A stretch of DNA of 48,622 nucleotides from contig CAVVNJ010000001.1 of NCBI GenBank assembly GCA_963749595.1, forward strand, positions 67,376 to 115,997, read 5' to 3'. Both the position numbers and the translations under genes were made by a program. The notes below the pieces were generated by a model, which searched no databases, was not told the DNA's origin, and saw nothing but the letters and a program-made list of their open reading frames with translations. Of this stretch, positions 7,636 to 48,622 are shown piece by piece. The stretch's first letter is position 1. Every line of letters starts with the position of its first letter. This DNA is from Candidatus Woesebacteria bacterium. GTDB taxonomy: Bacteria; Patescibacteriota; Microgenomatia; UBA1400; UBA1396.

Positions 7636-7639
7636 GATG

Positions 7640-7667
7640 GGACGCAGAGGCAACAAAGCGTCCTTTT
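7640..7667 (+). terminator. Candidate intrinsic terminator right after the tRNA 3' fragment
   Basis: GGACGC (7640-7645) / GCGTCC (7658-7663) stem followed by TTTT. Confidence 0.5.
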
Positions 7668-9893: not shown

Positions 9894-9914
9894 CTTGTTT
9901 TTCATAGTTTGCAT
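9420..9914 (-). CDS. Hypothetical ORF spanning the repeat array (may be non-coding)
   Basis: 164-aa ORF. Its G-x-x-L-x-x-x-W pattern is simply the 11-bp DNA repeat read in three successive frames. Confidence 0.3.
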   Translation of the reverse strand: MQTMKNKVGRKLAKTWLGKSLIRVGQKVDEVWMGIGQYLVRSWSAFKANKVGQNLDESWMDFGRVDLAKVAKLGRTVYAKGMPKICQNSVQRLLQLFSNTSPEIDQQRLHRSYTNPTPEFKRFSLKKVSQQLPNDYPENEGFSLNNIRTKSRMKSVQKIASTLR

Positions 9915-10041
9915 TTCGTTTTGTTAATTATTTTTCGTTAAAAACTCCTTCTAGTTAGTTTGTCGTCCTCTCGTTTCTCGCCGACGTTATGTGACTTTAG
10001 GAATTTAGCCTTGATTTCCTTTAAATCTTCTCGTTTGTTGT

Positions 10042-10440
10042 TCACGACGAGCGAGTTGTTGCCTCGTGGATGGCAAAAATTGTGACGATTTGGGGGTTAA
10101 GGGTGTAGAGGTTATTGGCAAAGACACTGGTGCCTTTTTTGTTCTTTTGCTTTTTTTTGCGGATTTCGATTAAAGGTTCGCCATTATGTCTGGCTTTGGC
10201 AAGATTAGCTGATTCTTCTGCTGACACTGGCAATACTATTAAGGCCCAAGATTTGTTTGAGCTTGCTCAGGGAGGGGTAGCATTCGCCTTTGTCGTTGAT
10301 AAATACCGCCAGGGCGGTGAAGGTGTGCCATTGTTCAGCAGTTAACATCAGGTAAGAAGCCCACCATGAAAGATGGGGTTTCGCCAGAATTGCAGATACA
10401 AATTATCCTTTGGTTTTTCTTGTTTCATTGACATATTCAT
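10042..10440 (-). pseudogene. HTH (HTH_36 / phage replication protein-like) gene with two frameshifts
   Basis: Manual translation: MNMSMKQEKPKDNLYLQFWRNPIFHGGLLT | MLTAEQWHTFTALAVFINDKGECYPSLSKLKQILGLNSIASVSRRI | ANLAKARHNGEPLIEIRK...NNLYTLN. Breaks at about 10350 and 10208. Confidence 0.6.
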
Positions 10441-10459
10441 TTATTGTTTTGGTCTTGGG

Positions 10460-10615
10460 CTATGAGCTACCGCTCTTGGCCTCGATCTTCATGGCCGTTT
10501 CTGCAAAGCCAATAAGGACCAGGGCAATGTCCAAGACTTCCTCAAGCTTTAAATCAACGTTGTAGTCCTCTTTGAGAATCTGTCTGAGCTCGAGTAGTAA
10601 CTTTTGGCTCACCAT
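10460..10615 (-). CDS. Small 51-aa hypothetical protein of the integrative-element core
   Basis: MVSQKLLLELRQILKEDYNVDLKLEEVLDIALVLIGFAETAMKIEAKSGSS; below the ORF-track size cutoff; overlaps the upstream gene's stop. Confidence 0.6.
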   Translation of the reverse strand: MVSQKLLLELRQILKEDYNVDLKLEEVLDIALVLIGFAETAMKIEAKSGSS

Positions 10616-35146: not shown

Positions 35147-35905
35147 CTATTTCTGAACTTTTATTGACCCCATGATTCGGTCCATAATTTTGAGAGTTTC
35201 CTCATCCGGATCAAGAGGGGTGGAGTAGTGGCTAGAACCAAAGCCGCTCACACTGGTATATTTTTCCGATTCTTTGCTTTGCGAGCAAATCGTCCAATAA
35301 CTGGCGTTATTACTTTCACCGTTCTCCACTATACTCCGGCGTAGATTCAGGCCCCGGTCGCTGACAATTTGCACAAAGCTGGTCAATCGATTCGACGGAC
35401 CTTCAAAATCTGCATCACCGGGATAGAGGCAAAAGCCCGGACCCCAGGCCAGGGGATTGACGCTGGACACCACGTAGCTATTTTTAGATACCTTAATATC
35501 CTGTTTGAATTGTAGCTTGCCGTCTTGATATAAATCGACCGAAGCCGATTCGTCAGTGACCACCCAATCGGCTGGGTAGCTGAATTCCGATTTGCCGTCT
35601 TTAAGGCGATAAGTCTTCCAAACGACCTCCTCAGCAATCGGGGCGGAACTCGGTGATGGCGTGGCAGTCGCTTGGGGTAACGGTGTCGCACTACTAACGG
35701 GGGTTGAAACTTTACTGATCAGGGTTTGATTCTGATAAACCAGGAAGCCGATCACCACCAACATGACGAGAAAAACGAGGGTGAAAATAACGATGGCTGG
35801 AGAAATTGCGCCGGGCTTGGGTTTCTGGTAGGGGGTACTATTGGGTTCGGTTTCCTTCACTAGTTCCGGAGACTCAACTAAACCAGAAGCATTAGGTTCA
35901 ACCAT
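35147..35905 (-). CDS. Single-pass membrane protein with a Pro/Ser linker and extracellular domain
   Basis: TM VIFTLVFLVMLVVIGFLVYQN, then WKTY...FSYPADW. Confidence 0.7.
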   Translation of the reverse strand: MVEPNASGLVESPELVKETEPNSTPYQKPKPGAISPAIVIFTLVFLVMLVVIGFLVYQNQTLISKVSTPVSSATPLPQATATPSPSSAPIAEEVVWKTYRLKDGKSEFSYPADWVVTDESASVDLYQDGKLQFKQDIKVSKNSYVVSSVNPLAWGPGFCLYPGDADFEGPSNRLTSFVQIVSDRGLNLRRSIVENGESNNASYWTICSQSKESEKYTSVSGFGSSHYSTPLDPDEETLKIMDRIMGSIKVQK

Positions 35906-35920: not shown

Positions 35921-37558
35921 TTATTCATAACGCAAGGCATTAAGGGCCGAGATTTTAGTGGTACGGTAGGCTGGATAAATTCCAGTGACTATACCCACAA
36001 ACAAGGAAAGGATTAAGATCACCACCAAGAACTGGGGAGGCAGATAAGCGATATCAACCATACCCACCCCTTTGGCCACCGCGAAAATTGAGATTAGAAT
36101 CCCCAATATTTTTCCGCCCGCAAAGCCAAAAATGATACCGAATAACCCGCCGTAAAAACCCATGATCATTGATTCGGTCAGGAATAATTCCCGCACTTCA
36201 GAGGATTTCATACCCATGGCTTTAATCAATCCAACTTCTCTGGTTCTCTCCAGCAGGGACACGGTCAGAGTATTAAACATTCCGAGTGAGGCTACCGCCA
36301 AAGCCACCGTACCAATTAGCAGCAACACAGCTCGCAGAGTCGCAAATAGTGAACTAATTTGAGCCACTGTATCCGCCACAGAACGTGTTAGATAGCCCTG
36401 AGCTTCGATTAGTCGTCGCACTTTGGCCAGTTCACCCTGATTCTTGGCTACAACTTTAAGCTGCGAATAATTAAGCACTGTCAGTTGCCGCAAATCGATA
36501 AAGGCGACGTAAAAAACCGGAGTTTTTTCATCGGAAACAACGCCAACAATTTTATATTCAGCCGGATAGGACTCTAGGCGGTCCTTATTGTCGGCCAAAG
36601 AATCGCCCACAATAATAAAAGACGCTTCAAAGGTCTTGCCAACGGCCGATTCTTCCTCAATTCCGAGCACTTTTAAGGCAGCACGATTAACAATCGCCTC
36701 GCGGACACTTGATCTCTTTAAGCTCATTTTTTTAACTTCCCGCGTATCGGTTTGGGCTGAAAGCGAGGCAATCTCAATGAAGTTGGTCTGCTCAACCGCC
36801 GAAGTCGCCGCGGGAGAAGCTGTTTCAGCGGTCACGAAACCCAAATCTTGACTTGGACCTGGAAAATCGATGGGCAGGTTATCATCATCCAGCTTACTGA
36901 TAATGTCATTGCTGGCAAAAATCTCTCCCCGCACCGGCTTAATCGCCGATTGGTTCAAATAATCAGCGGTCACACCAAAAACGGCCATGTCAGAAACCGA
37001 ATTCTGATAGTTAACCCGACCGACCGCCGCAATCAGCGGTAATACCGCCTCTACGTTGGCAATCTCTTTCAGATTGGATAAGGTGCCGTCATTTATTTTT
37101 ACCGCCCCGCCGGATTGGGGGTAGACGTCAGCTTGCCGCATCTCGTCCAGTCTCGCCACGCGGGAAATTACCAACTGTTGCAAACCATAACCGATGGAAA
37201 CCAGAAAGACGATCGCGCCGACGCCAATGGCCATACCGCCGACCGTAACCAAGGTTCTAGTCTTCTTGGCCTGCATGTTACGAAACGCCAGCTCAATCAA
37301 ATCAGACCGGGAGATGGTGTTTGAATTATGTCGATCCAATAACCTTTCCCCTAATATATAGAGGCGGTTAGCCCTCGGTTCTAGCCAGTTTTTTACAGAA
37401 ACCGGAATAAGACGCCATGGAAAAAATTTCTTGAAAGTTTGATAGAGCATCAGCAACAGCACAAAGGTCACCAAGCTATATACATTGGCTCCCAGGCGTC
37501 GAAGGCTTATTCGGGAAAGGAAAGAGCGAAATGATTTAAGAGCAGAGAGAGGCTTCAC
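35921..37558 (-). CDS. MacB/FtsX-family ABC transporter permease
   Basis: RTLVTVGGMAIGVGAIVFLVSIGYG, GMFNTLTVSLLERTREVGLIKAMG, GIYPA...KISALNALRYE. Confidence 0.93.
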   Translation of the reverse strand: MKPLSALKSFRSFLSRISLRRLGANVYSLVTFVLLLMLYQTFKKFFPWRLIPVSVKNWLEPRANRLYILGERLLDRHNSNTISRSDLIELAFRNMQAKKTRTLVTVGGMAIGVGAIVFLVSIGYGLQQLVISRVARLDEMRQADVYPQSGGAVKINDGTLSNLKEIANVEAVLPLIAAVGRVNYQNSVSDMAVFGVTADYLNQSAIKPVRGEIFASNDIISKLDDDNLPIDFPGPSQDLGFVTAETASPAATSAVEQTNFIEIASLSAQTDTREVKKMSLKRSSVREAIVNRAALKVLGIEEESAVGKTFEASFIIVGDSLADNKDRLESYPAEYKIVGVVSDEKTPVFYVAFIDLRQLTVLNYSQLKVVAKNQGELAKVRRLIEAQGYLTRSVADTVAQISSLFATLRAVLLLIGTVALAVASLGMFNTLTVSLLERTREVGLIKAMGMKSSEVRELFLTESMIMGFYGGLFGIIFGFAGGKILGILISIFAVAKGVGMVDIAYLPPQFLVVILILSLFVGIVTGIYPAYRTTKISALNALRYE

Positions 37559-38322
37559 AGGTGTTCTTCCCCACTAAATTGTTTATGTTTAATGTTTACA
37601 TCATTAGTCAATTTGTCTTTATCCGTACCACGGTAAACACCCTGAATTTGGCCATCAAACATCCGCACCGAAGTCGTGGCAAAGCGCAAATATTCTAAAT
37701 CGTGAGTCACCATCACGATAGTTTTTCCGGTTTGATTTAGAGTCTGCAACAGCTGCATTACATCCTGACCGGATTCGAAATCCAGGTTGCCGGTTGGTTC
37801 GTCAGCGATGATTAGCTCCGGATTATTGATGATCCCGCGAGCCAGGGCAATTTTCTGCTGTTGGCCACTGGACAGCTCGTTAGGATGATAATCTGCCCAG
37901 TTTAGCATGCCGACTTTCTCCAAAGCCTGCCTGGCACTTTCTAAAGATTTGGTTTTTTCTTGGCCAAGCAAAGACAGGGGGAAAGAGACGTTTTCCTGAA
38001 CATTTAGTGACTTGATCCAGTTTGGTTGTTGATAAATCATGCCGACGTGTTGTTTGCGGAACTCGGAGATATCATCTTCGTGCGGCTTGGTGTACAAATC
38101 CTCATGCAAAATAGTTATTTGGCCCTCACTCGGTTTTTCCAAACCTAAGATCGTGTGCAACAAGGTAGACTTGCCGCAACCGGAAGGACCAAAAATAATA
38201 AGGAAGTCGCCGGCATCAACGGCCAAAGTTATCTTCTTTAGAATTAGCACTGATTGCTGACCAACCAGAAAAGATTTAGAGATCTCGCGAATATCGATGA
38301 TGGCGTTGTTGTGGTCAATCAT
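37555..38322 (-). CDS. ABC transporter ATP-binding protein (MacB/LolD-like)
   Basis: GPSGCGKST, LSSGQQQ, IIADEPTGNLD, MVTHD. Confidence 0.95.
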   Translation of the reverse strand: MIDHNNAIIDIREISKSFLVGQQSVLILKKITLAVDAGDFLIIFGPSGCGKSTLLHTILGLEKPSEGQITILHEDLYTKPHEDDISEFRKQHVGMIYQQPNWIKSLNVQENVSFPLSLLGQEKTKSLESARQALEKVGMLNWADYHPNELSSGQQQKIALARGIINNPELIIADEPTGNLDFESGQDVMQLLQTLNQTGKTIVMVTHDLEYLRFATTSVRMFDGQIQGVYRGTDKDKLTNDVNIKHKQFSGEEHL

Positions 38323-41300
38323 TGATTAATACTCCCTAAAAATCCAAAAGCTTGTTGTAGATTGCTGATCACTAAGTTGAGGGCATTGTCTGTCGCTTTA
38401 GGAGTAATGGTTACGGTGTCAACCGAGGTAGATACATTCCCCGCTTTATCCTTAGACCGAGCCCGCAAGTGGTAAACCTTGGCCGGATAAAGATTGGAAA
38501 TGATCACTAAGTGATTAACGGTAAGAGAGCTGTCCTCCTGGGTTTTTTGGGCATATCCGGTGCCACTACCTTCACCGAATTCCACCTGAGAAGTGGCTGG
38601 TTCGTCCGTGTTCCAAGACACCACGATTTGTGCCACTGCCTCCTGACCACTAGAGGGAACCGGGGGAATATTTTCACCTTCAACGTGAAGATCGGAAACC
38701 TGTGGGGGGCGAGTGTCGACTGAAGTGTCAACCTTTTGACTATCAGAAGAGGCTTCGTTCCCAACTTTATCGCGTCCTTTGACCACCAAAAGATAACTTG
38801 TTTGGGGCAGTAAGCCGCCAACAATCATCCGGTGCTCACCTTTGATTAGAGCCACATTCACCTCATCGCGGGAAAGACTAGGACTCCCCTCCGGATAAAA
38901 AGTGACGATGCTGGATACTTCAGTGTTGGTGGACCAAGTTACCAGAATGGTGGTTTGAGCAGTATTGACCACCTGTTGAATCCGCACCCCGGAAATCTTT
39001 GGCCGAGGGAGGGTAGTGAAATCATTGACTTGGTTATCATATTCGCTGCCGTCACTGTCAAAGGTATTAATTTTGTAATAATATTTTGTGCCGTCGGTTA
39101 ATCCGGTCAGCTCAGCCGAATAGGCAGCTTCATTGATGGAAGTTGCAATAGTTTTGGTCAAACCAAATGCTGTCGTGGTACCGTAGTAAATTTTTACTGA
39201 TGAGGCGCCAGTACTGGTAAAGGAAATAATGGTTGAACTAAGACCGATATTACCGGCTGAAACATCTTTGACCGTAGGGGCGGGTGCGGTCGTAAAACTT
39301 TTTTCGCTGGAAGAAGTCGTGTTGCCATCCTCATCGGTCCACTTCGCTTTGTAGTAATAAGTCGTTCCCGCCGTCAGACCGGTTAGACCGATAGAGTGGC
39401 CGGTAACCTGGGTAGAGTTGCTGGGCTCGACCGAACCATAACTGCCGGCGGAGGTACCATACTGGATTTTAGAATCGGCTGCGCGGTTGGTGGTCCAAGT
39501 AATGGTTGCTTTTTTCGTCGTGATACTGCTGGCTGCCGGATCAGAATCCAGCGTGGGAGCGATCGTCCAGCGACCAGTTGGTGTAATGGATACGGCATTG
39601 GTGCCGGAGCTAAGCGCCGAAGCCCCATCTTGGGTATATATCTTGTAGTAATACAGGGCCGAAGTTGGGGCACTATCAACATAAGACAACCCCGTTGAGG
39701 TACCAACTTGGGAAAAACTGGTGCCATCGGACGATCGGTGGATCAAGTAGGTAAGATTACCGGCCCCCTGGTAGCTGGGGGCAGTCCACGTCAAAGTTAC
39801 GTTCCAAAGCGACTGCGACTTAATTGAGGAATCCGAAGCTACCACATTAGCCACGTTGTCCGGGCTGGTCGAATCAAGGATAAAGTCGCCGGAAATATAA
39901 TTCGAGGGAGAGTAATTTGCCGGGGTATCATCATCCACCGCCACCACATAGACCGTATTAGAGCCGCGATTAACATTCGGCAGGGCGGCGGCGGCCAGAG
40001 TTAAGCCAGTACCATTATCCAGATATGTGGAAGCATTGGATTGTAGCGTCGCCAAAGTCGCTGGCGGGGTAGTGTTAACCATGTAGTAGTAGTGCGTCAC
40101 CGTGTTTTCATCCGGTGAGGTCGCTGCTGGCCAGGAAATTTCATAGGAATTAGTCGAGGAAGTCGAAGGAGTAACCGTGATACTGTCAGTTGGGCCAAAG
40201 GTAGGCGCCGAGCCGCCAAATTGGAGGACGCCGGTGCGAATCGCCGTGGGATCAGAAACGTTGCCCGCCTGATCGATGGTCCGGAAATAAACGGTGTTAT
40301 TACCAGCGACAATCGAACTTCCGTCCCGGTCACTCGTTAACTGGTGAGTACTGGCCGGAGCCGGGATGTAGTTTAGATCCAAGGCGGCACTGGCGGATGA
40401 ACCTTTCCAGGTACCGCTCGTGGAATTAATTTGGTACTGCCAACCCAAAAGACCAGATATCGTGTCGGTAGAAACGCTGTCGCCAGTAACCGGCCATGAA
40501 AAACTCATGTCCGCCACATTACTGAAATTCCCCGCGGCCGGACTGATGTAAGTCACGTTGGTGGGCAGGGTAGAGTCATGGCGGAACTGGAATTGAACGG
40601 CCGAACCGGCATAAATGTTGCCCACGGCGTCAATGGCTTTCACGTTCAGGTAGTAAGGTTCGGTCGAATTAGTGAGCCAAGAATCTCCGTGGTAAGACGA
40701 GGTCGACAAGTCAATGAGCGTCGTCGAAACAATAAATTGACAAGTTGTTCCGGCGGTAGAAACCGGGCTGGTACCCAGTAGTCCTTTGCTGGTGGCCGGA
40801 TCACCGGCACTATCTACGCCCAGGTACAAGCAATAGCCAGAAACGCCGGACCCGGCACCAGTATCCGCACCGGCATCCCAGGAGAAATAAGGAGTGGCTG
40901 AGTTGGTCCAGCCGTTTAAGGGAACCGCGATATCACCGGCGGCGCGGAGCATGATAATGTCGTCGGCATTAGTCTCCGGATTGGTGGAGTCAACATAGAA
41001 GGCGATCGCGCCGCCATTGGCTGTGGTGAAAGCGGATTCTAGTCCCGCCTGATCAATCGCCATTAATCGCCAGTAATAACTTCCATCGGCCAAGGTTTGT
41101 CCTTCCGCACCGGTGGCGTAAGTACCAGTGCCGGCGGCCTGACCAATGGTAAAACTTAAGCTGCCTGACGATGCCAGAGCAGAGGTGTAATCAACCAGTG
41201 GCGCCGCAAAATCGGCCGTGGTAGAAATTTGTAAACGGTACTGGACGGTATCACCCACGTTGGGATCAGAGACGGTGTAGGTCAGCGTTGGCGTTTCGTC

Positions 41301-44300
41301 GACAGTGTAGCCGCCAGTAACTAAAGTATTCGGGCCCAGCACGCTGGGACTACTGGGAGCCACGTTAAAGAAATAGGAAGAAAACCGCACGCGGTTAGGC
41401 ATAGCCCCGCCTTCCGACCAAGCGTAAATCAAATCCGACGTGCTACCGATGGCCGTGCCCCAGGAGATTGGGGGAATGTCTGACAATTGAGTCGCCACCG
41501 CGGGAGTAGTAAACGGCACCACCACCCGTGCCCGTAAATAGTAATAAGGAGTTTCCTCACCGTTCACTATAGTGGTTGCCCAGTCTGACGGTGGCAAAAA
41601 GGTTAGATAACCGGAACCTACCAGAAGTGATGGATTGGAAACTCCCAAGAAGCCGTTCAGACCAACCCAGGCTGAACTATTCCAGTACTCCCAAAACAAC
41701 TGACCGCCAATGCCGACCGTGGAGAGTCCCCAGGACAGCGCGTCGAATTTTTGTAGTTTGCCAAAATAACCGATGTCGCCAATCGCGGAGGGGAGAGCGG
41801 TATCAGCAGCGGTAGTGTTCGCTGCCGCTCCGGTGATATCGGCATAAGAACCGTCGGCGGCAGCCGTATATTTCCAATACTTATCCAGCACGCCGTGCCA
41901 ATTAATCACAGTGGTGGCGGAAGCATCAAAGTTAACGGTGGCATAGGGCGGCAGACCCTTTTTATAGACGAATCTTCGGTTTCCTGGAAGAGCGGTACTA
42001 AGATTAGTGGTGTCGCCATAGTAGACATATGCAGTGGTCCCCACGATCCCGACCGATACCCAACCACTGCTGTAGGCAGTACTAGAAACGGTCGCATTAG
42101 CCGACCAAGCCAAACCATTCCAAAAGGTAAAATAAACATTGGTGCTGGTATTCAAAGTGACATAAACCTTTCCCAGAGCGTCGCCCACGGCGGAAAAGGT
42201 GGGGGTACTAATAGCGGAGGGGCTTACCGGAGCTTCGGGGTTCCAGCTTGTCAGACCATCCGAGTCTTCCCGCCAACGCCAACGCAAGTTCGTTCCGGTC
42301 TGGGAGTTGTAGATTACTCCAATATTGCTGCCAAAACGAACCAAAGCCGGATAGTGGTAAGCACTGCTATTACCAGCGTTATCCAAGGTGCGTTGGGACA
42401 AAGTCCAAGTTGGCGCATCCGACAAATCACTGGAATTAAAGACCGAAACTTGATAGTTGTTATTGTCGTAATACCGCGCGGCTACCCATAAGCGAGTGTC
42501 ACCCTCAACCTCGATCACGGCAAAACTGTAACCATCCAACGTACCACCGCTCGCCACCGTCTGGGCTGCGCCAAGGGTCCAGGTACTGCCGGCACCTTTC
42601 GTCAATTTGCGGTAGAAAACCCCATAGAAAGCGTTGATGGTAGCAGTGTCGGTGGAGTAAACCAAATAGATATTATCACTGGCGTCAACTGTGGCTGAGG
42701 CATACATCAAGTTGGTCAGATCGTTGGAAACCTGCCCGCCGCAGGTCCAGTTTTGGCCAGAATCGGTGGAGTAGATCCAGATTAAGCCGGCCGTATTATT
42801 GAGACCATTCGACCCGGCGCAGGGGACGCTGGTAGAGGCTTGAATAAAGGCGTGGAGCGTGCCATCAGAAGTCTTTACCATCTTCCGCTGGGTGGAGTAA
42901 CGAGTAGCATTAGCCACTCCAACGGTTCCGCCGGAATACCAGGAAGAGGAAGTTAAATTGGGTTTTAATTCGGCGTAAGTCGCAGCGTTGGCAGTAGTAG
43001 TTGTAACGTCAGTTGAGTTGAAACGAACTTTCATTGGCGCAACACCAATATTTTCACTCCACAGACCGTACAGTTTTCCGGATACGGGATTAGGCAGAAA
43101 ACTACTGGCGTAGGAACGCGGCATATTATCAGCCTGAGTGCCGACCGGCGGGGTGGAGTAGGCGGTAACCACCCGGGCGCGAACATAATAGTACGGCGTC
43201 CCCTCATCATTGACCGGCGTGGTCGCCCAGTTGGTGGGTGGGGTAAAACTAACGTAACCCCGGGCGCTGACAAAGTTGCCATTGCTTTGCGATTGGATAC
43301 TGGATATTCCGGCCCAAGCTGAACCGTTCCAATATTCCCACACCACCACACCGCCAACTCCGGCCGTTGGAGTTTGCCAGTTAACGGTGTCAAATTTTTG
43401 CAATTTGCCAAAATATGCAATATCGTTAACGGCACTAACCATCTGCAGGTCGCTACCACCGATGCTGCCGGCATCAGTAGTGTCGTCCAAATAACCACCT
43501 GAAACATAACTCCAGTATTTGTCAAAAATGCCGTGATAGGAGATTAGTGGCGTCGCCACAACGTCAAACTCGCTGGCGGTATAGGGTGGAATGCCTTTTT
43601 TGTATGCCAACCGATGGTAGCCCTGCTGACCCCCAGTAAACCCGGTGAAGCCAAGGGAGTCGCCAAAAATTACCCAGACGTTATAGCCATCCGTCACCAG
43701 ACTTACCAAACCGGAGACGGTACTGGCGGTGGTATTCACTGTTGTGGTCGCGGACCAGGCCGTGCCATTCCAATAACTAAAGTAGGTCACCGAGCTATTA
43801 TTGGAGGCGTAATATACCCTCCCGGAAGAATCGCCCACCGCGCTGTAATAAGCCGCAGTAACTTGATCGGTGCCTACCGTCGCTTCGCCCGACCACGCCG
43901 TCAACTCATCAGCATCGTTCCGCCAACGCCAACGGGTTTGCGTGGTAGTGGCGTAGCCCACGCTGTAGATTACGCCAACCTTAGTGCCAAAACGAACCAA
44001 AGCTGGAAAATGCTTCGTTGTCGCTCCATTAGGCGTATCTAACGAGGTTTGTGACAAGGTCCAGGTGGGACTGGTAGAAAGATTGTTGGAGTAATAAACC
44101 GAAACCTGGTAGTTGCTGCCATCAAAATAACGGGTGGCTAACCATAACCGACTAGTTCCTTCCACCTCAACCACCGAATAGGAATAACCAATCAAACCCG
44201 AACTGGCGTCCAAGGCGATCTGGGCGTTACCAAGACTCCAGTTGGCGCCACCTTGTTTAGTCATTTTGCGGTAGTAAGTACTGTTAGCCAAGTTTGAACC

Positions 44301-47300
44301 CTCAGTCACCACGGAGTAGACCACATAGATGTTATCGTTGCCATCAACCGTTGCTGAGGCATACATGACGTTGGTCAGATCATTACTTAACTGAGCCCCG
44401 CAGGTCCAGGTTGCCCCTTCGTCGGTCGAGTAAATCCACATCAGTCCGTTATTGTTGTTGCCCGTCTGATTGCCACAAGCTAAACGGTTGTGAGCCTGAA
44501 TAAAAGCGTGCAGCGTACCATCGGACGTCCGGACTAACTTGCGCATAGTTGGCGCCCAGCTGGCGTTGGCCAGCGTGGAGTAGCCCACCACCGGCGGATC
44601 AATCTCGGCATTACTCGTGCTGGAAGTCACCGCCGACACTTCTAGGGACCCAAATCTAACCTTAGCCTGAGCGGTGGAGTTTTCGGTCCAAAGTCCGTAA
44701 ATATTGCCCGAGATCGGCATCGGTAAGAAACTACCAAAGTTGGTTTGGGAGAGGGCCACGAATTGGGTGCCGACCGGCGGGGTGGAGTAGGCGGTAACCA
44801 CCCGGGCGCGAACATAATAATAGGGAGTGGCCTCATTGCCGACATTAGTGGTTTGCCAATCGCCGGGAGCAATAAAACTTAAATAACCGTTATTCAAAAA
44901 TGTGCCGTTGGACACGCCAATAAATTTAGTCAGTTCTTTCCAGGCTGAGCCGTTCCAATACTCCCAGACCAATTGGCCGCCGATACCATTGGTCGACAGA
45001 GACCACGAAATCGAATCGTATTTCTGCAGCTTACCAAAATAAGCCATATCACCAACCCCAGTGAAAAGGGTCGCGTCCGCCGCAGTGGTATTGCCGGCTG
45101 CGGTGGTTTTGTCGGAATGGACACTGGAAACATAACTCCAATATTTGTCAAAAATATTATATTGACCCACTACGTTCACGGCGGCATCGCAAACCGCCCC
45201 GGCAAAGACACAGCGCCTATAAACAATATTACGATTACCAGGCAAAGTGGTACTTAAGCCCGCAATAGCGTTATAAAAAACCCAGACCTGAGCCCCATCA
45301 GTGGAAAGCGCAATAAAATTGTTAGCCGCCACGGTATTGGCCGCAGTAACAGTGATGCTCGGTTGCCAGGTGACTCCGTCCCAATAATTGAGGTAAATGG
45401 CGGCGTTATCCGGGTTGTAGGCCACATAAACGTTGGTCCCGTCAGAAACCGCAGTGAAGCTATTGGAACCATTCGTCGTTACTTCAGCGATGGAATCGTT
45501 GGACCAACTGGTTAAAGCATCCCCATCTTGGCGGAAACGCCAGCGCAAACCAATTTGGCCAGCAACGTTGTTGTAGTTCACACTGTTCTGACTGCTATAA
45601 ATGACGCCAATCCGGTTATTGAAACGCACTATCGCTGGAACATGGGTGCCGCTGTTGTTGGCTAAATCAAAAGCGCTGGAAGATACCGTCCAAGTCGGAG
45701 CCGCAGACTGGTTGCTGGAATAATACACTTTGACCACGTAGTTGAGGCCATCAAAATAACGGGTGGCTAACCAGAGCCGATCGGTATTTTCCGCCTCGAT
45801 CACGGAAAAACTGTACCCCTCCGTTCCGGAACTGGTCAGCACCGTCTGGGCCGCCTCCAAAGTCCAGGTTGAACCCTCTCCTTTGGTTAGCTTCCGGTAG
45901 TAGACGTTATATGCGCCGCTGGCTCCGTTCACCGCTACCGAGTAGGTGACATAAATATTGTCAGCGGTATCAACGGCTGCCGACGGAAAAAATTGGAAGT
46001 TGCTGGTCGTGTTGTCCAGAAAGATTTGCCCGCCGCAGGTCCAGTTTTGGCCAGAATCTGTGGAATAAATCCAGTTGATACCCAAACCATTATTGGTGGT
46101 TTGACTACCGCATGCCGATACGTTTCCACTGTTGACGAAAGCGTGGAGCGTCCCGTCGGACGTGCGAACTAAATGCCGCTCAGTGGATGGTTGGGTGGCT
46201 AAATTGCTGGAAGCATAAGCCAAAGTATAGGGAGCAATATCACTGGCGGCAGCGTCATTGGGTGTCCCAGCAGAAACGGTAACAGAAGCGCTACGGACTT
46301 TCACTGGTGAGGCACTATTTTCCGCCCAAAAACCATAAATTGTGTTTGCCACCGGGGCAGACAGAAAGTAGTTTAAATTTAAATTGGGAATCGCTGCCGC
46401 CTGAATACCAACAGGCGGAGTCGTGATGGCGCTAGTTACTTCCGCTCGAAGATAATAGTAGGGCGTACCCTCGCTGTTAACAATTGTCGGCTGCCAGTCC
46501 GAGGGTGCGGTAAAGGCTCCCCAACCCGCGGCGGCCGTAAAACCGGAAGCGGTCCCGGTAGTAAAGACAATTGAGGAATTCCAATCAGAGCCATTCCAAT
46601 ATTTCCAGGTCACTGCGCCGCCGACACCGGCCGTGGAAAGCGACCAAGAGATCGAATCAAAAGGCTGCAGCTTGCCGAAATAGGCCATATCACCAATGGC
46701 TGAAGGGAAAGATGAGTCGGCCGAGGTGACGTTACTAAGATCGGCAGTATCGTCAGTATAGGTATCGCCGCTAGCGGTATATTTCCAGTATTTGTCGAAA
46801 ACGTCTTGGTAAGGTACTGCCTTAGTGGCAGTGAGCTCAAAGTCGTTCGTAGTGTAGGGTAGCCAACCACGCTTATAAACCAACTTACTATTGCCGGATA
46901 ATCCACTGGTTAAACCCGTCGTTTCCTGATAGAACACCCAGACGTTGGTCCCATCGGTGGATAACGAGGCCGCGCCAGAACCAAGGCCAGCTGAGGAAAC
47001 GATGGCGTTAGGTGACCAAACCGAGCCGTTCCAATAATTAAAAACCACACTCGCCCCAGAAACGAGCACTAAGTAAACATTGCCGTTGGCGTCAGAGATC
47101 GCGTTAAAGCGAGCCGAGGTACCAATTGTGGTGGTCACAATATTTTCCGGTGACCAACTGGTTAGTCCGTCGGCGTCATCACGCACCCGCCAGCGGAGAT
47201 AGGCCTGGGGAAACTGTGACTGGTAAACCACGCCAATCTTAGTCCCAAAACGAACAATTGACGGATAGTGTAGGCCGTTATTGTTTCCTGGCGTATTCAG

Positions 47301-47993
47301 GCTGGCTTGAGAAATGGTCCACGTCGGGTTATCGGAAAGATCGTTGGAGTAATAAACCGAAACTTGGTAGTTGGCACCATCAAAATAGCGAGTGGCCACC
47401 CAGGTTCGGGTGCCGTCATTCTCGATTACCGCAAAACTGTATCCTACGCTTGATGATCCTGCAATCACTGTTCGAGCATCGCCCGTTGCCCAGACCGCCC
47501 CCTCACCCTTAGTAAGTTTACGATAAAAAGTTCCGTAGGCCGTGCTCGCCCCACCGTTGCCGGCCGAGTAGATCAAATAAACGTTGTCCGACACATCGAC
47601 CGTGGCGGAAGCGTACATCAGATTGGTGGTATCGCTCGACAACTGTGCGCCACAGGTCCAGCTAGCACCAGCATCGGTCGAATAAAACCAAATCAAGCCA
47701 GATTTGGCCACGCTGTCACACAGAGTAGTTTGGGTGCCCGTTTGAACAAAAGAGTGCAGCGTCCCATCCGAAGTCCTAACTAGCCGCTTCTGGGTCATGC
47801 TGGACGTTGCCAAAGTCGTGGAGGAATTACTGATGAAGAAAGATGAGGTTGCCGCCAGAACCACCGCCGCTGTTAAGGCTACCCCGACCAACCCAACGAT
47901 TACGGCTAAAAACAACTTCTCGCGATACTGTAATGCGGGCAGTAATTTACGAGGGAAAGGTTTCAAACGGAAGGAAATCTTGGGCCGGCGCAT
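38319..47993 (-). CDS. Giant 3224-aa surface protein: N-terminal TM, four ~545-aa BNR/Asp-box repeat modules, C-terminal FN3/Ig-like domains
   Basis: Uninterrupted ORF. [R/K]TSDGTLH x4; Asp boxes STDAGASW, STDSGQNW (x2), STDEGATW; FN3 signatures LTGLTAGTTYYYK, LTGLTDGTKYYYK, WNTDEPATSQVEF. Confidence 0.92.
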   Translation of the reverse strand: MRRPKISFRLKPFPRKLLPALQYREKLFLAVIVGLVGVALTAAVVLAATSSFFISNSSTTLATSSMTQKRLVRTSDGTLHSFVQTGTQTTLCDSVAKSGLIWFYSTDAGASWTCGAQLSSDTTNLMYASATVDVSDNVYLIYSAGNGGASTAYGTFYRKLTKGEGAVWATGDARTVIAGSSSVGYSFAVIENDGTRTWVATRYFDGANYQVSVYYSNDLSDNPTWTISQASLNTPGNNNGLHYPSIVRFGTKIGVVYQSQFPQAYLRWRVRDDADGLTSWSPENIVTTTIGTSARFNAISDANGNVYLVLVSGASVVFNYWNGSVWSPNAIVSSAGLGSGAASLSTDGTNVWVFYQETTGLTSGLSGNSKLVYKRGWLPYTTNDFELTATKAVPYQDVFDKYWKYTASGDTYTDDTADLSNVTSADSSFPSAIGDMAYFGKLQPFDSISWSLSTAGVGGAVTWKYWNGSDWNSSIVFTTGTASGFTAAAGWGAFTAPSDWQPTIVNSEGTPYYYLRAEVTSAITTPPVGIQAAAIPNLNLNYFLSAPVANTIYGFWAENSASPVKVRSASVTVSAGTPNDAAASDIAPYTLAYASSNLATQPSTERHLVRTSDGTLHAFVNSGNVSACGSQTTNNGLGINWIYSTDSGQNWTCGGQIFLDNTTSNFQFFPSAAVDTADNIYVTYSVAVNGASGAYNVYYRKLTKGEGSTWTLEAAQTVLTSSGTEGYSFSVIEAENTDRLWLATRYFDGLNYVVKVYYSSNQSAAPTWTVSSSAFDLANNSGTHVPAIVRFNNRIGVIYSSQNSVNYNNVAGQIGLRWRFRQDGDALTSWSNDSIAEVTTNGSNSFTAVSDGTNVYVAYNPDNAAIYLNYWDGVTWQPSITVTAANTVAANNFIALSTDGAQVWVFYNAIAGLSTTLPGNRNIVYRRCVFAGAVCDAAVNVVGQYNIFDKYWSYVSSVHSDKTTAAGNTTAADATLFTGVGDMAYFGKLQKYDSISWSLSTNGIGGQLVWEYWNGSAWKELTKFIGVSNGTFLNNGYLSFIAPGDWQTTNVGNEATPYYYVRARVVTAYSTPPVGTQFVALSQTNFGSFLPMPISGNIYGLWTENSTAQAKVRFGSLEVSAVTSSTSNAEIDPPVVGYSTLANASWAPTMRKLVRTSDGTLHAFIQAHNRLACGNQTGNNNNGLMWIYSTDEGATWTCGAQLSNDLTNVMYASATVDGNDNIYVVYSVVTEGSNLANSTYYRKMTKQGGANWSLGNAQIALDASSGLIGYSYSVVEVEGTSRLWLATRYFDGSNYQVSVYYSNNLSTSPTWTLSQTSLDTPNGATTKHFPALVRFGTKVGVIYSVGYATTTQTRWRWRNDADELTAWSGEATVGTDQVTAAYYSAVGDSSGRVYYASNNSSVTYFSYWNGTAWSATTTVNTTASTVSGLVSLVTDGYNVWVIFGDSLGFTGFTGGQQGYHRLAYKKGIPPYTASEFDVVATPLISYHGIFDKYWSYVSGGYLDDTTDAGSIGGSDLQMVSAVNDIAYFGKLQKFDTVNWQTPTAGVGGVVVWEYWNGSAWAGISSIQSQSNGNFVSARGYVSFTPPTNWATTPVNDEGTPYYYVRARVVTAYSTPPVGTQADNMPRSYASSFLPNPVSGKLYGLWSENIGVAPMKVRFNSTDVTTTTANAATYAELKPNLTSSSWYSGGTVGVANATRYSTQRKMVKTSDGTLHAFIQASTSVPCAGSNGLNNTAGLIWIYSTDSGQNWTCGGQVSNDLTNLMYASATVDASDNIYLVYSTDTATINAFYGVFYRKLTKGAGSTWTLGAAQTVASGGTLDGYSFAVIEVEGDTRLWVAARYYDNNNYQVSVFNSSDLSDAPTWTLSQRTLDNAGNSSAYHYPALVRFGSNIGVIYNSQTGTNLRWRWREDSDGLTSWNPEAPVSPSAISTPTFSAVGDALGKVYVTLNTSTNVYFTFWNGLAWSANATVSSTAYSSGWVSVGIVGTTAYVYYGDTTNLSTALPGNRRFVYKKGLPPYATVNFDASATTVINWHGVLDKYWKYTAAADGSYADITGAAANTTAADTALPSAIGDIGYFGKLQKFDALSWGLSTVGIGGQLFWEYWNSSAWVGLNGFLGVSNPSLLVGSGYLTFLPPSDWATTIVNGEETPYYYLRARVVVPFTTPAVATQLSDIPPISWGTAIGSTSDLIYAWSEGGAMPNRVRFSSYFFNVAPSSPSVLGPNTLVTGGYTVDETPTLTYTVSDPNVGDTVQYRLQISTTADFAAPLVDYTSALASSGSLSFTIGQAAGTGTYATGAEGQTLADGSYYWRLMAIDQAGLESAFTTANGGAIAFYVDSTNPETNADDIIMLRAAGDIAVPLNGWTNSATPYFSWDAGADTGAGSGVSGYCLYLGVDSAGDPATSKGLLGTSPVSTAGTTCQFIVSTTLIDLSTSSYHGDSWLTNSTEPYYLNVKAIDAVGNIYAGSAVQFQFRHDSTLPTNVTYISPAAGNFSNVADMSFSWPVTGDSVSTDTISGLLGWQYQINSTSGTWKGSSASAALDLNYIPAPASTHQLTSDRDGSSIVAGNNTVYFRTIDQAGNVSDPTAIRTGVLQFGGSAPTFGPTDSITVTPSTSSTNSYEISWPAATSPDENTVTHYYYMVNTTPPATLATLQSNASTYLDNGTGLTLAAAALPNVNRGSNTVYVVAVDDDTPANYSPSNYISGDFILDSTSPDNVANVVASDSSIKSQSLWNVTLTWTAPSYQGAGNLTYLIHRSSDGTSFSQVGTSTGLSYVDSAPTSALYYYKIYTQDGASALSSGTNAVSITPTGRWTIAPTLDSDPAASSITTKKATITWTTNRAADSKIQYGTSAGSYGSVEPSNSTQVTGHSIGLTGLTAGTTYYYKAKWTDEDGNTTSSSEKSFTTAPAPTVKDVSAGNIGLSSTIISFTSTGASSVKIYYGTTTAFGLTKTIATSINEAAYSAELTGLTDGTKYYYKINTFDSDGSEYDNQVNDFTTLPRPKISGVRIQQVVNTAQTTILVTWSTNTEVSSIVTFYPEGSPSLSRDEVNVALIKGEHRMIVGGLLPQTSYLLVVKGRDKVGNEASSDSQKVDTSVDTRPPQVSDLHVEGENIPPVPSSGQEAVAQIVVSWNTDEPATSQVEFGEGSGTGYAQKTQEDSSLTVNHLVIISNLYPAKVYHLRARSKDKAGNVSTSVDTVTITPKATDNALNLVISNLQQAFGFLGSINQ
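41370..47790 (-). repeat. Four tandem intragenic repeat modules (approximate extent)
   Basis: The [R/K]TSDG codon begins at 47777, 46166, 44531 and 42875 (spacings 1611, 1635, 1656 bp). Confidence 0.88.
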
Positions 47994-48622
47994 TACGGAT
48001 CCTCACCCTGGATTAAGGCCGCGATACTATTCATGATCTGCCAGTAGTCCGCCTGTTGCCGGAAAAAAGTGGTGTAGTCGCCCACCGAATAGGTATCAAT
48101 CATGGTTTTGGTCCGACTAACATACAAGGCAGCCAGACTTTTTAGTCCCACTGGATCCACCTTAGGATCGACTTTCGTAAAAAAATCACTGAAAATCGTT
48201 GGGAAGGCGCTGATTGGCTTCAGCTGCTTGGCTTTTTCACCATTATCCTTTTGGCTGGCCGCCTGAGCATAGGCCATAAAGGCAGCCGTTTGCATTCGCC
48301 ACATCGTTTGGAACTCATAGCGGATTTTTTCGTCGTAATGTTCACCCAACCACAGGGAAATAGCCGTGGCATTATTTTCCAAAGCTTGGGCTGATGCTTG
48401 AGACTCGACGTCACTTCGACTAAACAGACTTAGGGTTAGGAGAGAGGCATGTTCCTTGAATAGGTCGTGCAGCGCATCGTTGGAGTGAGTATAGACTAGA
48501 TATTTTTGTTGATTAACTTTTAACTGGACGTAAAAAAAGACATTAGCGGCGACACTTAGTACGATGAAAAAAGCAAAAACAAAAGCACACAAGGCGCCCC
48601 AATGAACTTTAGTTAAGTTTCT
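47993..48622 (-). CDS. 5'-partial membrane-anchored hypothetical protein, first visible gene of the giant-protein operon
   Basis: Frame is open to the window edge (RNLTKVHWGALCAFVFAFF...); TM followed by a helical domain; its TAA overlaps the giant gene's ATG. Confidence 0.7.
   Translation of the reverse strand, partial: RNLTKVHWGALCAFVFAFFIVLSVAANVFFYVQLKVNQQKYLVYTHSNDALHDLFKEHASLLTLSLFSRSDVESQASAQALENNATAISLWLGEHYDEKIRYEFQTMWRMQTAAFMAYAQAASQKDNGEKAKQLKPISAFPTIFSDFFTKVDPKVDPVGLKSLAALYVSRTKTMIDTYSVGDYTTFFRQQADYWQIMNSIAALIQGEDP

What the first reader, a model, noticed from the sequence alone, without database searches (positions are those of the whole stretch)
35921..48622. Giant surface protein translationally coupled to a MacB-type ABC transporter, with an amphipathic C-terminal tag
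Seen: four genes joined by overlapping stop/start codons (TAATG 47991-47995, ATGA 38319-38322, GTGA 37555-37558). The 3224-aa protein has an N-terminal TM and ends NALNLVISNLQQAFGFLGSINQ, an amphipathic helix rather than a TM or sortase signal. No MacA or TolC partner is visible. Known: MacB/LolCDE-type transporters act by mechanotransmission on extracytoplasmic substrates. Inference: a dedicated system that extracts, positions or releases a host-attachment protein in an episymbiotic bacterium, with the C-terminal helix as recognition signal.
Basis: partly seen in the sequence, partly recalled or inferred. Interest (0 to 1): 0.62.

Follow-up and report, generated by a model that had tools for sequence, protein, structure and literature searches.

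The report
Surface fibre protein with dedicated ABC machine
An ultra-small (Patescibacteria) bacterium encodes a 3224-residue surface fibre directly coupled to a MacB-type ABC ATPase and permease, and the fibre's conserved stalk and end helix occur only in genomes that also carry this ABC type, which points to an undescribed way of holding or handling attachment proteins.

Summary
All three overlapping stop/start junctions are at the stated coordinates. The 3224-aa protein, its hydrophobic N-terminus, its amphipathic C-terminal helix and the MacB-type ATPase and permease are all real.

- A 32-position HMM of the tail found 97 cluster representatives among 1.84 billion proteins, nearly all with the match within a few residues of the C-terminus.
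- In 72 of 79 related loci the ATPase and permease lie next to the tailed protein. In 6 of the other 7 the contig ends too soon to tell. The seventh genome has the permease on another contig.
- In 61 genomes of the order, stalk and permease co-occur in 11, neither occurs in 48, and the stalk never occurs alone.

One correction: the tail is not a portable tag. It always ends a conserved module of about 870 residues, made of eight FN3-like domains, which sits under variable heads (a 4x propeller repeat here; lectin, Kelch or DGR-diversified heads elsewhere).

My best reading is a Sec-exported adhesin-like fibre whose stalk end and tail dock on a type VII ABC transporter, as EnvC docks on FtsEX. 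Physical contact is inferred, not shown. I found no publication describing the cassette. Earlier notes of this scan describe it repeatedly.

The parts
47993..48622 (-). Upstream gene, 5' end cut by the contig end (>=209 aa). It has an N-terminal hydrophobic segment followed by a domain of unknown family. Its stop overlaps the giant's ATG (TAATG).
   Evidence: No Pfam or NCBIfam hit. Homologues occur only beside the two full-length orthologues of the giant (L053 37% id, L097 30% id), so it is a lineage-specific accessory and not part of the family core.
38319..47993 (-). Giant surface protein, 3224 aa: signal sequence or anchor, four-fold repeated head, eight-domain FN3-like stalk, C-terminal helix.
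47850..47918 (-). N-terminal hydrophobic segment (residues ~26-48, LFLAVIVGLVGVALTAAVVLAA), followed by TSS. It is a Sec signal peptide or a signal anchor.
   Evidence: The full-length orthologues have the same layout with small residues before the mature part (IWAA/ISS, LVYAA/TST). Cleavage is inferred, not tested.
41124..47783 (-). Variable head: four tandem repeats of ~540-590 aa (residues 71-607, 608-1152, 1153-1704, 1705-~2290), 45-49% identical to each other. Each begins with a TSDGTLH motif and an Asp-box-like YSTDxGxxWT motif.
   Evidence: No Pfam or PDB sequence match. The same 4-repeat architecture occurs in L053 (3213 aa) and L097 (3202 aa). Other family members carry different heads.
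38403..41006 (-). Conserved stalk (residues ~2330-3197): eight consecutive beta-sandwich (FN3/Ig-like) domains, shared at 30-70% identity by all relatives.
   Evidence: AF2 model md0e377ee3ef1 has mean pLDDT 88. Foldseek matches FN3/Ig chains. Pfam gives Pur_ac_phosph_N and fn3.
38322..38402 (-). C-terminal tail (residues 3198-3224, PKATDNALNLVISNLQQAFGFLGSINQ). The amphipathic helix spans 3204-3221. The family motif is A-L-[DN]-L-V-[IV]-x-N-L-x-x-[AVI]-F-G-F-L plus 0-10 residues.
   Evidence: AF2 predicts a helix with pLDDT <50, not packed on the last FN3 domain.
37555..38322 (-). ABC ATPase, 255 aa. Walker A (GPSGCGKST), signature (LSSGQ), Walker B (IIADEPT) and H-loop (VTHD) are all present. 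It belongs to the FtsE/LolD/MacB-type NBD clade. Its start overlaps the giant's stop (ATGA).
   Evidence: Orthologues lie next to the stalk protein in related loci, and in eight loci the ATPase is fused to the permease.
35921..37558 (-). Type VII (MacB-fold) ABC permease, 545 aa. It has an N-terminal extension with a conserved hydrophobic helix, then TM1 (~99-134), an ectodomain (~135-393) and TM2-4. Its GTG start overlaps the ATPase stop (GTGA). It lacks the ~140-aa ectodomain insert found in most orthologues.
   Evidence: AF2 model mbc8b5c74acf0 has pLDDT 83.8, with residues 223-271 disordered where the insert is missing. Foldseek matches MacB, LolC/E, Spr0694-0695 and YtrEF at E 1e-17 to 1e-21.
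35147..35905 (-). Downstream 252-aa membrane-anchored protein, 15 nt after the permease. It is probably not part of the system.
   Evidence: No homologue in any related locus.

Best explanation
The cassette encodes a Sec-exported, fibre-like surface protein and its own type VII (MacB-fold) ABC transporter. The fibre has a lineage-variable binding head (here four propeller-type repeats), a conserved rod of eight FN3-like domains and a conserved C-terminal amphipathic helix.

I propose that the cell-proximal end of the fibre, meaning the last stalk domains and above all the unpacked tail helix, docks non-covalently on the outer face of the permease dimer. This would resemble the way EnvC, PcsB and RipC dock on FtsX, or MacA on MacB. 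The transporter would then be the membrane socket of the fibre. ATP binding and hydrolysis by the cytoplasmic ATPase would be transmitted through the permease (mechanotransmission) to hold, reposition or let go of the fibre.

Shown here: the gene layout, the folds, the C-terminal position and strong conservation of the tail, and the near-obligate genomic linkage of stalk+tail with this ABC subfamily. Inferred: the physical contact, the tail as the contact element, and the outcome of ATP hydrolysis.
For: 1. Linkage. In 72 of 79 loci recovered with the stalk/tail profile, the ATPase and permease lie next to the tailed protein. In 70 they lie directly downstream on the same strand, and in eight of those the two are fused. 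In six of the other seven the contig ends too soon to tell: three are cut within ~0.6 kb of the stop codon (two of them inside the ATPase gene) and three have a histidine-kinase gene or a gap before the end. The one clear exception (L124) has a full orthologous permease on another contig (E 1e-255).

2. Phyletic pattern. In 61 genomes of the order, 11 have both, 48 have neither and 0 have the stalk only. Two have the permease only, and both of those are contig-edge fragments. Fisher p = 2e-10. The same-genus genome G001 lacks both.

3. Translational coupling here and in most relatives.

4. The tail HMM finds 97 cluster representatives in 1.84e9 proteins, nearly all with the match ending within a few residues of the C-terminus.

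5. Tail conservation. A1, L4, V5, L9, F13 and F15 are >=96% conserved. The polar or small positions N8 and G14 are 84% conserved. The tail core ranks in the top 6% of 16-residue windows of the module. Yet it is the only strongly conserved segment that AF2 leaves unpacked (pLDDT <50). That is the signature of a partner-binding motif.

6. Many relatives have signal-peptidase-like sites after the N-terminal hydrophobic segment (21 of 27 with the QFNL motif; L038 and L040). This would leave the C-terminal end as the only conserved candidate for retention on the cell.

7. The head-stalk-C-terminal-anchor order matches classical monoderm adhesins. Heads in relatives are lectin-like (LamG, FGE/C-type-lectin with an adjacent DGR) or Kelch propellers.

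8. All characterised type VII ABC systems work with an extracytoplasmic protein partner: FtsEX-EnvC, LolCDE-LolA, MacAB-TolC and YbbAP-TesA (PMC12646458, PMC7668044, PMC5985334).

9. In this genome the other MacB-like paralogue has a HlyD-type adaptor next to it, whereas this one has the giant protein in that position.

10. Genomes with several tailed proteins have fewer ABC pairs, as expected for clients of a shared machine.
Against: No interaction was tested. Only single-chain structure prediction was available.

The tail never occurs without the ~870-residue stalk. Comparative data therefore cannot separate tail recognition from stalk recognition, or from any other functional coupling of the two genes.

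In distant subfamilies the tail diverges about as much as the stalk and the permease. It is not an invariant signal.

Some tailed proteins are not adjacent to an ABC pair (L125, L127, L129, L131, L132).

If the N-terminal segment is an uncleaved anchor, as its 22-residue hydrophobic core in this protein might suggest, the C-terminus could be the distal end of the fibre.

A note from a later check within this scan gave low odds to the strongest 'ABC-powered organelle' version of this idea. That is an unverified AI note and I treat it only as caution.
Confidence: 0.45

Rival explanations
1. Transient substrate rather than docked partner (LolCDE- or HrtBA-like extractor). After Sec export, the amphipathic tail lies in the outer leaflet as an in-plane anchor. 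The ABC transporter extracts it in order to release the fibre, hand it to the wall or S-layer, or shed it on demand.
For: Several type VII ABC systems extract hydrophobic or amphipathic moieties from the outer leaflet (LolCDE, HrtBA, YbbAP; structural matches; PMC12646458). The tail is amphipathic and often ends in basic residues. All linkage data fit this reading as well as they fit stable docking.
Against: Identity-level conservation of polar and small positions (N8, D/N3, G14) is more typical of a protein-protein interface than of a lipid-embedded helix. A 16-residue helix with mean hydrophobicity 0.30 is a weak membrane anchor for a 3224-aa protein. No acceptor protein (a LolA analogue) is conserved in the cassette.
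Confidence: 0.2
2. Functional but not physical coupling. The ABC transporter does something the fibre needs. It might remodel or open the cell wall for passage of a giant protein (FtsEX- or YtrEF-like control of wall enzymes), export a small molecule, lipid or glycan, or sense envelope state and signal. It would not bind the fibre.
For: Among the full-length Foldseek matches, YtrEF has the best TM-scores (TMq 0.57, TMt 0.69). YtrEF is implicated in cell-wall phenotypes, though its function is unresolved (PMC13729185). Most orthologous permeases carry an ectodomain insert with a faint SH3_3-like signal (4 of 20 members, best E 0.019). About 15 of 79 loci add a histidine kinase and/or a receiver domain to the cassette, which recalls BceAB-type sensing.
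Against: This does not explain why the stalk and tail, rather than the head or protein size, track the transporter. It also does not explain why the most conserved unpacked element sits at the extreme C-terminus. No wall hydrolase or other candidate partner is conserved in the cassette. The window's permease lacks the insert yet keeps everything else.
Confidence: 0.2
3. The N-terminal segment is the real membrane anchor. The tail is then at the distal tip or is an oligomerisation helix that bundles several fibres. The ABC pair would act on the N-terminal anchor or on something else.
For: The hydrophobic core of the N-terminal segment is long here (22 residues). Of 51 complete relatives, 27 carry a conserved [RK]xQFNL motif just before that segment, so the N-terminus also carries information. 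The a/d-like spacing of hydrophobic tail residues would suit a coiled coil.
Against: Twenty-four of 51 relatives, this window included, lack the N-terminal motif but keep the tail and the ABC pair. Signal-peptidase-like sites follow the hydrophobic segment in most motif-bearing members. Placing the variable, sometimes DGR-diversified head next to the membrane and the invariant stalk outside would be the reverse of every known adhesin.
Confidence: 0.1
4. Neighbourhood without shared function: a conserved operon kept together by co-transfer on mobile elements.
For: The cassette is patchy (absent from the same-genus genome G001). In some relatives it lies near DGR and other accessory genes.
Against: Adjacency survives rearrangements: ABC upstream in L092, divergent in L110, permease before ATPase in L043, and NBD-permease fusions. 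It holds across subfamilies with ~30% identity, with overlapping start and stop codons. The stalk is never found in a genome without the ABC type.
Confidence: 0.03

Closest known systems
FtsEX with its extracytoplasmic partners (EnvC in E. coli; PcsB, CwlO and RipC in monoderms and mycobacteria)
   Same: A type VII ABC pair (separate ATPase, 4-TM permease with an ectodomain). It transports nothing across the membrane. It binds helical elements of an extracellular protein and moves them by ATP-driven mechanotransmission (PMC7668044, PMC10694151). This is the best functional analogy.
   Different: FtsX is ~300 aa with a small ectodomain. The NCBIfam FtsX models score 22-30 bits here against cut-offs of 225-255. 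Its partners are coiled-coil regulators of wall hydrolases, not 1000-3200-aa FN3 fibres ending in one short helix. There is no cell-division context here.
MacB / MacAB-TolC
   Same: Same permease fold (Foldseek E 1e-21 to 1e-18). Some relatives have the MacB-style NBD-permease fusion. The ectodomain is engaged by a dedicated partner.
   Different: No MacA-type adaptor lies next to it and the genome has no TolC. The organism is presumably monoderm. There is no evidence for a small-molecule or peptide substrate. The permease has an extra conserved N-terminal hydrophobic helix, and most relatives have an ectodomain insert.
LolCDE (lipoprotein extraction) and other type VII extractors (HrtBA, YbbAP-TesA, BceAB)
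   Same: Same fold. These act on membrane-embedded or amphipathic moieties of extracytoplasmic clients. Dedicated recognition of a terminal feature of a protein (the lipid-modified N-terminus in Lol) is a precedent for recognition of a terminal signal.
   Different: Reading the sequence, I see no lipobox and no Cys after the signal sequence. The LolC/E models are far below cut-off (62 bits against 362). The candidate signal is a C-terminal helix, not an acylated N-terminus. No LolA-like acceptor is present.
Giant RTX adhesins retained on their type 1 secretion system (LapA/LapBCE of Pseudomonas, MpIBP)
   Same: A giant repeat adhesin is encoded with a dedicated ABC system and held on the cell through that system.
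   Different: T1SS uses a different ABC fold, a C-terminal secretion signal for Sec-independent export, and an MFP and TolC. The protein here has an N-terminal Sec-type signal and a type VII ABC transporter that has no transmembrane channel.
C-terminal sorting signals of monoderm surface proteins (LPXTG/sortase; PEP-CTERM, PGF-CTERM, GlyGly-CTERM with exo/archaeo/rhombosortases)
   Same: Head, stalk and C-terminal cell-proximal signal in the same order. The signal is strictly C-terminal, and a dedicated machine is encoded nearby.
   Different: There is no motif-TM-basic tripartite signal and no TM helix. No NCBIfam sorting-domain model matches. The partner is an ATPase-driven ABC complex, not a transpeptidase or protease. 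The tail is not portable between unrelated proteins.

Membership tests
Type VII ABC transporters (MacB/FtsX/LolCE superfamily) | Permease with four TM helices and a large extracytoplasmic domain between TM1 and TM2 (Porter/Sabre-type core) | tested here: met
   Pfam MacB_PCD (49 bits against cut-off 27) and FtsX (62.7 against 25.5). The AF2 model has long helices at 99-134, 394-437, 452-495 and 508-535 with a mixed alpha/beta domain between them. Foldseek matches MacB, LolC/E, Spr0694-0695, YtrEF and HrtB at probability 1.0.
Type VII ABC transporters (MacB/FtsX/LolCE superfamily) | Cognate cytoplasmic NBD of the FtsE/LolD/MacB clade with intact catalytic motifs | tested here: met
   ABC_tran E 1.9e-34. 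Top NCBIfam hits are FtsE, LolD, DevA and MacB. Walker A, signature, Walker B and H-loop can be read in the sequence.
MacAB-TolC tripartite pump | Adjacent membrane-fusion protein (MacA/HlyD family) and an outer-membrane factor (TolC/OEP) | tested here: not met
   The genome has no OEP match, while controls are positive. Two HlyD_3 matches lie elsewhere in the genome: the stronger one on contig C8, beside another MacB-like paralogue, and a weaker one on contig C2. Neither is in this cassette.
FtsEX cell-division system | FtsX-type permease reaching the curated family score, with a coiled-coil hydrolase regulator as partner | tested here: not met
   FtsX models score 21.7-30.4 bits against cut-offs of 225-255. 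FtsE scores 193 against 264.85. The neighbour is an FN3 fibre with a single short terminal helix.
LolCDE lipoprotein release system | LolC/E equivalog score and a lipoprotein (lipobox Cys) client | tested here: not met
   lolCE scores 62 bits against a cut-off of 362. Reading the sequence, I see no lipobox or Cys after the signal segment of the giant protein.
Type 1 secretion of RTX-type giant adhesins | Type IV-fold ABC exporter with MFP and OMF; substrate without a Sec signal, with a C-terminal secretion signal and RTX repeats | tested here: not met
   The ABC transporter here is MacB-fold. The substrate has an N-terminal Sec-type segment. Pfam finds no RTX repeats. The genome has no OMF.
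Sortase / exosortase-type C-terminal sorting signals | Short signature motif followed by a TM helix and a basic cluster; the signal is shared by unrelated proteins of one genome | tested here: not met
   The last 45 residues contain no LPXTG motif and no TM helix, and no NCBIfam model matches at E<=10. The tail occurs only on proteins that carry the same ~870-aa stalk.
Patescibacterial 'tailed FN3-stalk protein + type VII ABC' cassette (operational family defined here and in earlier notes of this scan; not a published family) | C-terminal module of eight FN3-like domains ending in A-L-[DN]-L-V-[IV]-x-N-L-x-x-x-F-G-F-L, with the ATPase and MacB-fold permease adjacent | tested here: met
   The window's protein matches over residues 2330-3224 at 30-70% identity, and the tail core is identical to the family consensus at every position conserved at >=82% in the family.

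The most novel reading that the evidence does not exclude
The C-terminal helix, with the last stalk domain, is a new kind of surface-protein anchoring signal. It would be recognised by a type VII ABC transporter acting as an ATP-controlled, non-covalent socket. Patescibacteria would then hold, tension or release exchangeable-head (sometimes DGR-hypervariable) attachment fibres with an ABC motor, instead of a sortase or a lipid anchor. Where a histidine kinase and receiver are built into the cassette, the same machine could report fibre engagement to the cell.
Probability: 0.15. Interest if true: 0.85.

Novelty: new variant of a known kind. Interest (0 to 1): 0.6.

Why it matters
How ultra-small, host-dependent Patescibacteria recognise and hold on to other cells is largely unknown beyond type IV pili. 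Their giant surface proteins are usually listed only as candidate adhesins (for example PMC13059738).

This cassette gives such proteins a defined architecture: an exchangeable head, a fixed eight-domain stalk and a conserved terminal helix. It also gives them an obligatory partner machine. About a quarter of sampled genomes of the phylum match the last 200 residues of the stalk and tail (111 of 401; the weakest of these matches cover FN3 domains only).

If the partner really is the anchor or actuator, that would extend the type VII ABC 'mechanotransmission' principle from wall-hydrolase control, lipoprotein release and efflux to the handling of adhesin fibres. It would also add a new entry to the short list of ways monoderm bacteria attach proteins to their surface.

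The hypothesis is directly testable with a 20-residue peptide, one ectodomain and the genetically tractable Saccharibacteria.

Tried and rejected
- The tail as a portable tag. Rejected: all full-length proteins found by the tail-only HMM also carry the whole ~860-aa stalk.
- A known C-terminal sorting domain. No NCBIfam hit for the tail even at E<=10.
- A T1SS-like export signal. Rejected on the fold of the ABC transporter and the presence of a Sec-type N-terminus.
- P0004 and P0005 as core members. Rejected: P0004 is seen only with the two full-length orthologues and P0005 is not seen at all in related loci. Clustering of all flanking ORFs finds no fourth universal gene. The commonest extras are DGR RT/Avd (22-23 loci) and HK/receiver (14-15 loci).
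- Sequence searches of one head repeat and of the stalk against the PDB. Nothing found.
- Pfam on one head repeat. Nothing found.
- Ectodomain insert of orthologous permeases as an SH3b domain. Only a faint SH3_3 signal in 4 of 20 members and no PDB profile hit, so inconclusive. Because the window's permease and L115 lack the insert but the tails are intact, the insert cannot be the obligatory tail receptor.
- The N-terminal [RK]xQFNL motif as the feature linked to the ABC pair. Rejected: 24 of 51 complete relatives lack it.
- Literature. Seven full-text searches found no description of the cassette.
- Tail-permease covariation. Not attempted: about 70 pairs, near-invariant tails and strong phylogenetic structure give too little power.

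Full report
**1. Observation**

ORF listing and the sequence itself confirm four co-directional genes on the minus strand.
- A 5'-truncated gene (48622..47993).
- A 3224-codon gene (47993..38319).
- A 255-codon ABC ATPase gene (38322..37555).
- A 545-codon permease gene (37558..35921).

The contig ends at the window's end, so the first gene is incomplete.

The ATPase has all catalytic motifs. Its best family matches are FtsE, LolD, DevA and MacB, all below their equivalog cut-offs. The permease has MacB_PCD and FtsX domains above Pfam thresholds. A confident AF2 model (pLDDT 83.8) matches MacB, LolC/E, Spr0694-0695, YtrEF and HrtB (Foldseek E 1e-21 to 1e-11). It is therefore a type VII ABC system.

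No TolC-family protein is encoded in the genome. The only clear HlyD-type adaptor lies beside a different MacB-like paralogue on contig C8.

**2. Anatomy of the giant protein**

After a basic N-region there is one hydrophobic segment (residues ~27-48), followed by TSS.

Residues 71-~2290 are four tandem repeats of ~540-590 aa. They are 45-49% identical to each other, and each has an Asp-box-like motif. They match no Pfam family or solved structure by sequence.

Residues ~2330-3197 are predicted with high confidence (pLDDT ~90) as eight consecutive beta-sandwich domains. These resemble FN3/Ig chains.

The last 27 residues contain a helix (3204-3221) that AF2 does not pack against anything (pLDDT <50). 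It is amphipathic: the hydrophobic moment is 0.35, reached by 3.5% of shuffles.

**3.

Orthologous permeases occur in 13 of 61 genomes of the same order. Wherever context was available, a large protein next to them ended in the same tail.

A profile of the last 200 residues recovered 269 relatives in a species-representative genome collection, and 79 loci were kept. The record titles name many Patescibacteria lineages: Microgenomates groups, WWE3, WS6, and some records labelled Saccharibacteria or Parcubacteria. Some third-party assemblies are labelled Gammaproteobacteria or Pseudomonadales, which looks like mislabelling.

In 72 of the 79 loci the ATPase and permease lie beside the tailed protein. 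In 70 they are directly downstream on the same strand, and in eight of those they form an NBD-permease fusion.
- Three of the other seven are cut by a contig end within ~0.6 kb of the stop codon, two of them inside the ATPase gene.
- Three more have a histidine-kinase gene or a gap before the contig end.
- The single clear exception has a full orthologous permease on another contig.

In 58 of 72 loci there are at most 30 nt between the giant's stop and the ATPase start.

At genome level in the order, the stalk/tail and the permease co-occur in 11 genomes and neither occurs in 48. The stalk never occurs alone. The two permease-only cases are fragments at contig edges (Fisher p = 2e-10). The same-genus genome lacks both, so the cassette is gained and lost as a unit.

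A tail-only HMM (32 positions) searched against 1.84 billion representative proteins found 97 at E<=1e-3. Nearly all matches end within a few residues of the C-terminus.

Over 165 distinct tails the motif is V-T-I-T-P-K-A-T-[DE]-[NS]-A-L-[DN]-L-V-[IV]-x-N-L-x-x-[AVI]-F-G-F-L plus 0-10 residues. Six positions are >=96% conserved. The polar N and the G are each 84% conserved. The tail core is in the top 6% of 16-residue windows of the module for conservation.

The refutation condition is therefore not met.

**4. A correction to the interpretation**

Every full-length protein found by the tail HMM also carries the complete ~860-residue stalk. Only this C-terminal module is shared between relatives (30-70% identity).

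The N-terminal parts differ.
- The four-repeat head occurs here and in L053 and L097.
- FGE/C-type-lectin heads occur in L046 and L050, each with an Avd gene and a reverse-transcriptase gene (a DGR) immediately upstream.
- LamG heads occur in L069 and L075.
- Kelch propellers occur in L114.
- Other heads match no family.

So the tail is not a free tag. It is the end of a conserved stalk that carries exchangeable heads. The element that co-varies with the transporter is stalk plus tail.

More distant subfamilies across the phylum keep the same logic. They have a diverged tail (...S-x-[FL]-D-L-[IV]-L-x-S-...-G-W-L-F-G-G) and a shorter ~400-aa permease. Some genomes have several tailed proteins, often in tandem, and fewer ABC pairs. 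That fits clients sharing a machine.

**5. Mechanism**

I commit to the following, with confidence 0.45. The protein is Sec-exported, and its head is distal. The cell-proximal stalk end and tail helix dock on the outer face of the MacB-fold permease dimer. The transporter serves as the socket and uses ATP-driven mechanotransmission to hold, reposition or release the fibre.

Arguments beyond linkage:
- The tail is the only strongly conserved segment that is not part of a folded domain.
- Its polar positions are conserved as well as its hydrophobic ones.
- Many relatives have signal-peptidase-like sites after the N-terminal segment. This leaves no other conserved retention device.
- The head-stalk-C-terminal-anchor order is that of monoderm adhesins.
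- All characterised type VII ABC systems act through an extracytoplasmic protein partner (PMC12646458, PMC7668044, PMC5985334).
- In this genome the other MacB-like system has a HlyD adaptor in the position where this one has the giant protein.

None of this shows contact.

The rivals are:
- a Lol-like transient extraction or release of the tail (0.2);
- functional coupling without binding, for example wall remodelling or sensing (0.2);
- an N-terminal anchor with the tail distal or acting in oligomerisation (0.1);
- mere co-transfer (0.03).

**6. Peculiarities of this copy**

The window's permease (545 aa) lacks a ~140-aa ectodomain insert present in most orthologues (620-860 aa). AF2 leaves a disordered linker at that place.

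The insert has only a faint SH3_3-like signal. The tail is intact here and in L115, which also lacks the insert. The insert therefore cannot be the obligatory tail receptor.

The family-typical [RK]xQFNL motif before the N-terminal hydrophobic segment is absent here, as it is in 24 of 51 complete relatives.

The upstream gene has homologues only beside the two full-length orthologues. The downstream 252-aa gene has none.

**7. Novelty**

Seven full-text searches found papers on type VII ABC systems and on large patescibacterial surface proteins as candidate adhesins (PMC13059738). None linked the two.

Earlier notes of this scan describe the same cassette in many other genomes and reach similar readings. 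They are AI notes, not independent evidence. One later check gave low odds to the boldest 'ABC-powered organelle' version, and I keep that reading at 0.15.

I class the finding as a new variant of a known kind: a type VII ABC transporter with an extracytoplasmic protein partner, where the partner is a giant, head-swappable fibre with a C-terminal helix.

Noticed in passing
window 36750-36900 (permease residues ~223-271); compare L046-L124 orthologues: The window's permease lacks the ~140-aa ectodomain insert (W-x-R-V-R...G-Y-T-K-R...Cys-rich C-D...D-C-E-D-G) present in most orthologues. AF2 shows a disordered linker at that place. L115 also lacks the insert. Its fold is unresolved: SH3_3 is hinted in 4 of 20 members (best E 0.019).
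   Followed up: partly
L034:12911-15043; L081:10594-13228; L098, L101, L117, L090, L116; L071:13497-13865: In about 15 of 79 related loci a sensor histidine kinase (CHASE4-PAS-HisKA-HATPase) and/or a stand-alone receiver domain is built into the cassette. It usually lies between the giant gene and the ATPase gene. This hints at signalling coupled to the ABC machine, as in Bce-type systems. The window has none.
   Followed up: partly
L046:3587-5480; L050:4207-5268; L051:4116-5900; L054; L064: Family members with an FGE/C-type-lectin head have a bAvd gene and a reverse-transcriptase gene (a diversity-generating retroelement) immediately upstream of the giant gene. RT is present in 23 of 79 loci and Avd in 22 of 79. 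The window's contig ends just upstream of the giant gene, so nothing can be said about this copy.
   Followed up: partly
N-termini of giants in L046, L051, L054, L059, L060, L070-L072, L084, L085, L100, L110 and others: Of 51 complete relatives, 27 carry a conserved motif (Y-F-x-x-P-R-F-H-F-S-R-F-Q-F-N-L or K-I-T-I-A-K-W-Q-F-N-L) at the cytoplasmic edge of the signal segment. In 21 of the 27 this is followed by a [VIL]-F-A|[LATSV] peptidase-like site. This is a specialised signal peptide of unknown meaning. It is absent from the window's protein.
   Followed up: partly
G000 contig C8:196046-198512 (outside the window): A second MacB-like permease (421-aa frame) in the same genome has a HlyD_3-type adaptor gene directly upstream. 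It is a conventional adaptor-type MacB system and useful as a negative control for the giant-linked one.
   Followed up: no
permease residues 19-74 (window ~37337-37504) and all orthologues: A conserved N-terminal extension with a hydrophobic helix (F-x-L-L-L-x-x-Y) precedes the canonical elbow helix and TM1. It is kept in NBD-permease fusions, so it cannot be a simple extra transmembrane pass. Its topology and role are unexplained.
   Followed up: no
L125 (three in tandem), L126, L129, L130, L100; G260, G097, G208, G275: Some Patescibacteria carry up to seven tailed giants, often in tandem arrays. There may be one ABC pair per array, or an ABC pair elsewhere in the genome. A distant subfamily (L127, L131, L132) has a longer tail (Q-L-I-L-K-S-L-E-E-T-F-A-W-T-K-N-L...) and no adjacent ABC pair.
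   Followed up: partly
L047, L048, L054, L057 and many other 'MAG TPA_asm' records: Many third-party assemblies carrying this cassette are titled 'uncultured Gammaproteobacteria' or 'Pseudomonadales', although gene content and relatives are patescibacterial. These labels are probably taxonomic errors in the records.
   Followed up: no
L047:5938-7077 with 7325-10603; also L048, L055, L073, L087: In five loci the giant gene is split into an N-terminal ORF of ~380-400 aa and a C-terminal ORF of ~1100-1180 aa. This could be a frameshift, an assembly problem or a real split. I did not examine it.
   Followed up: no
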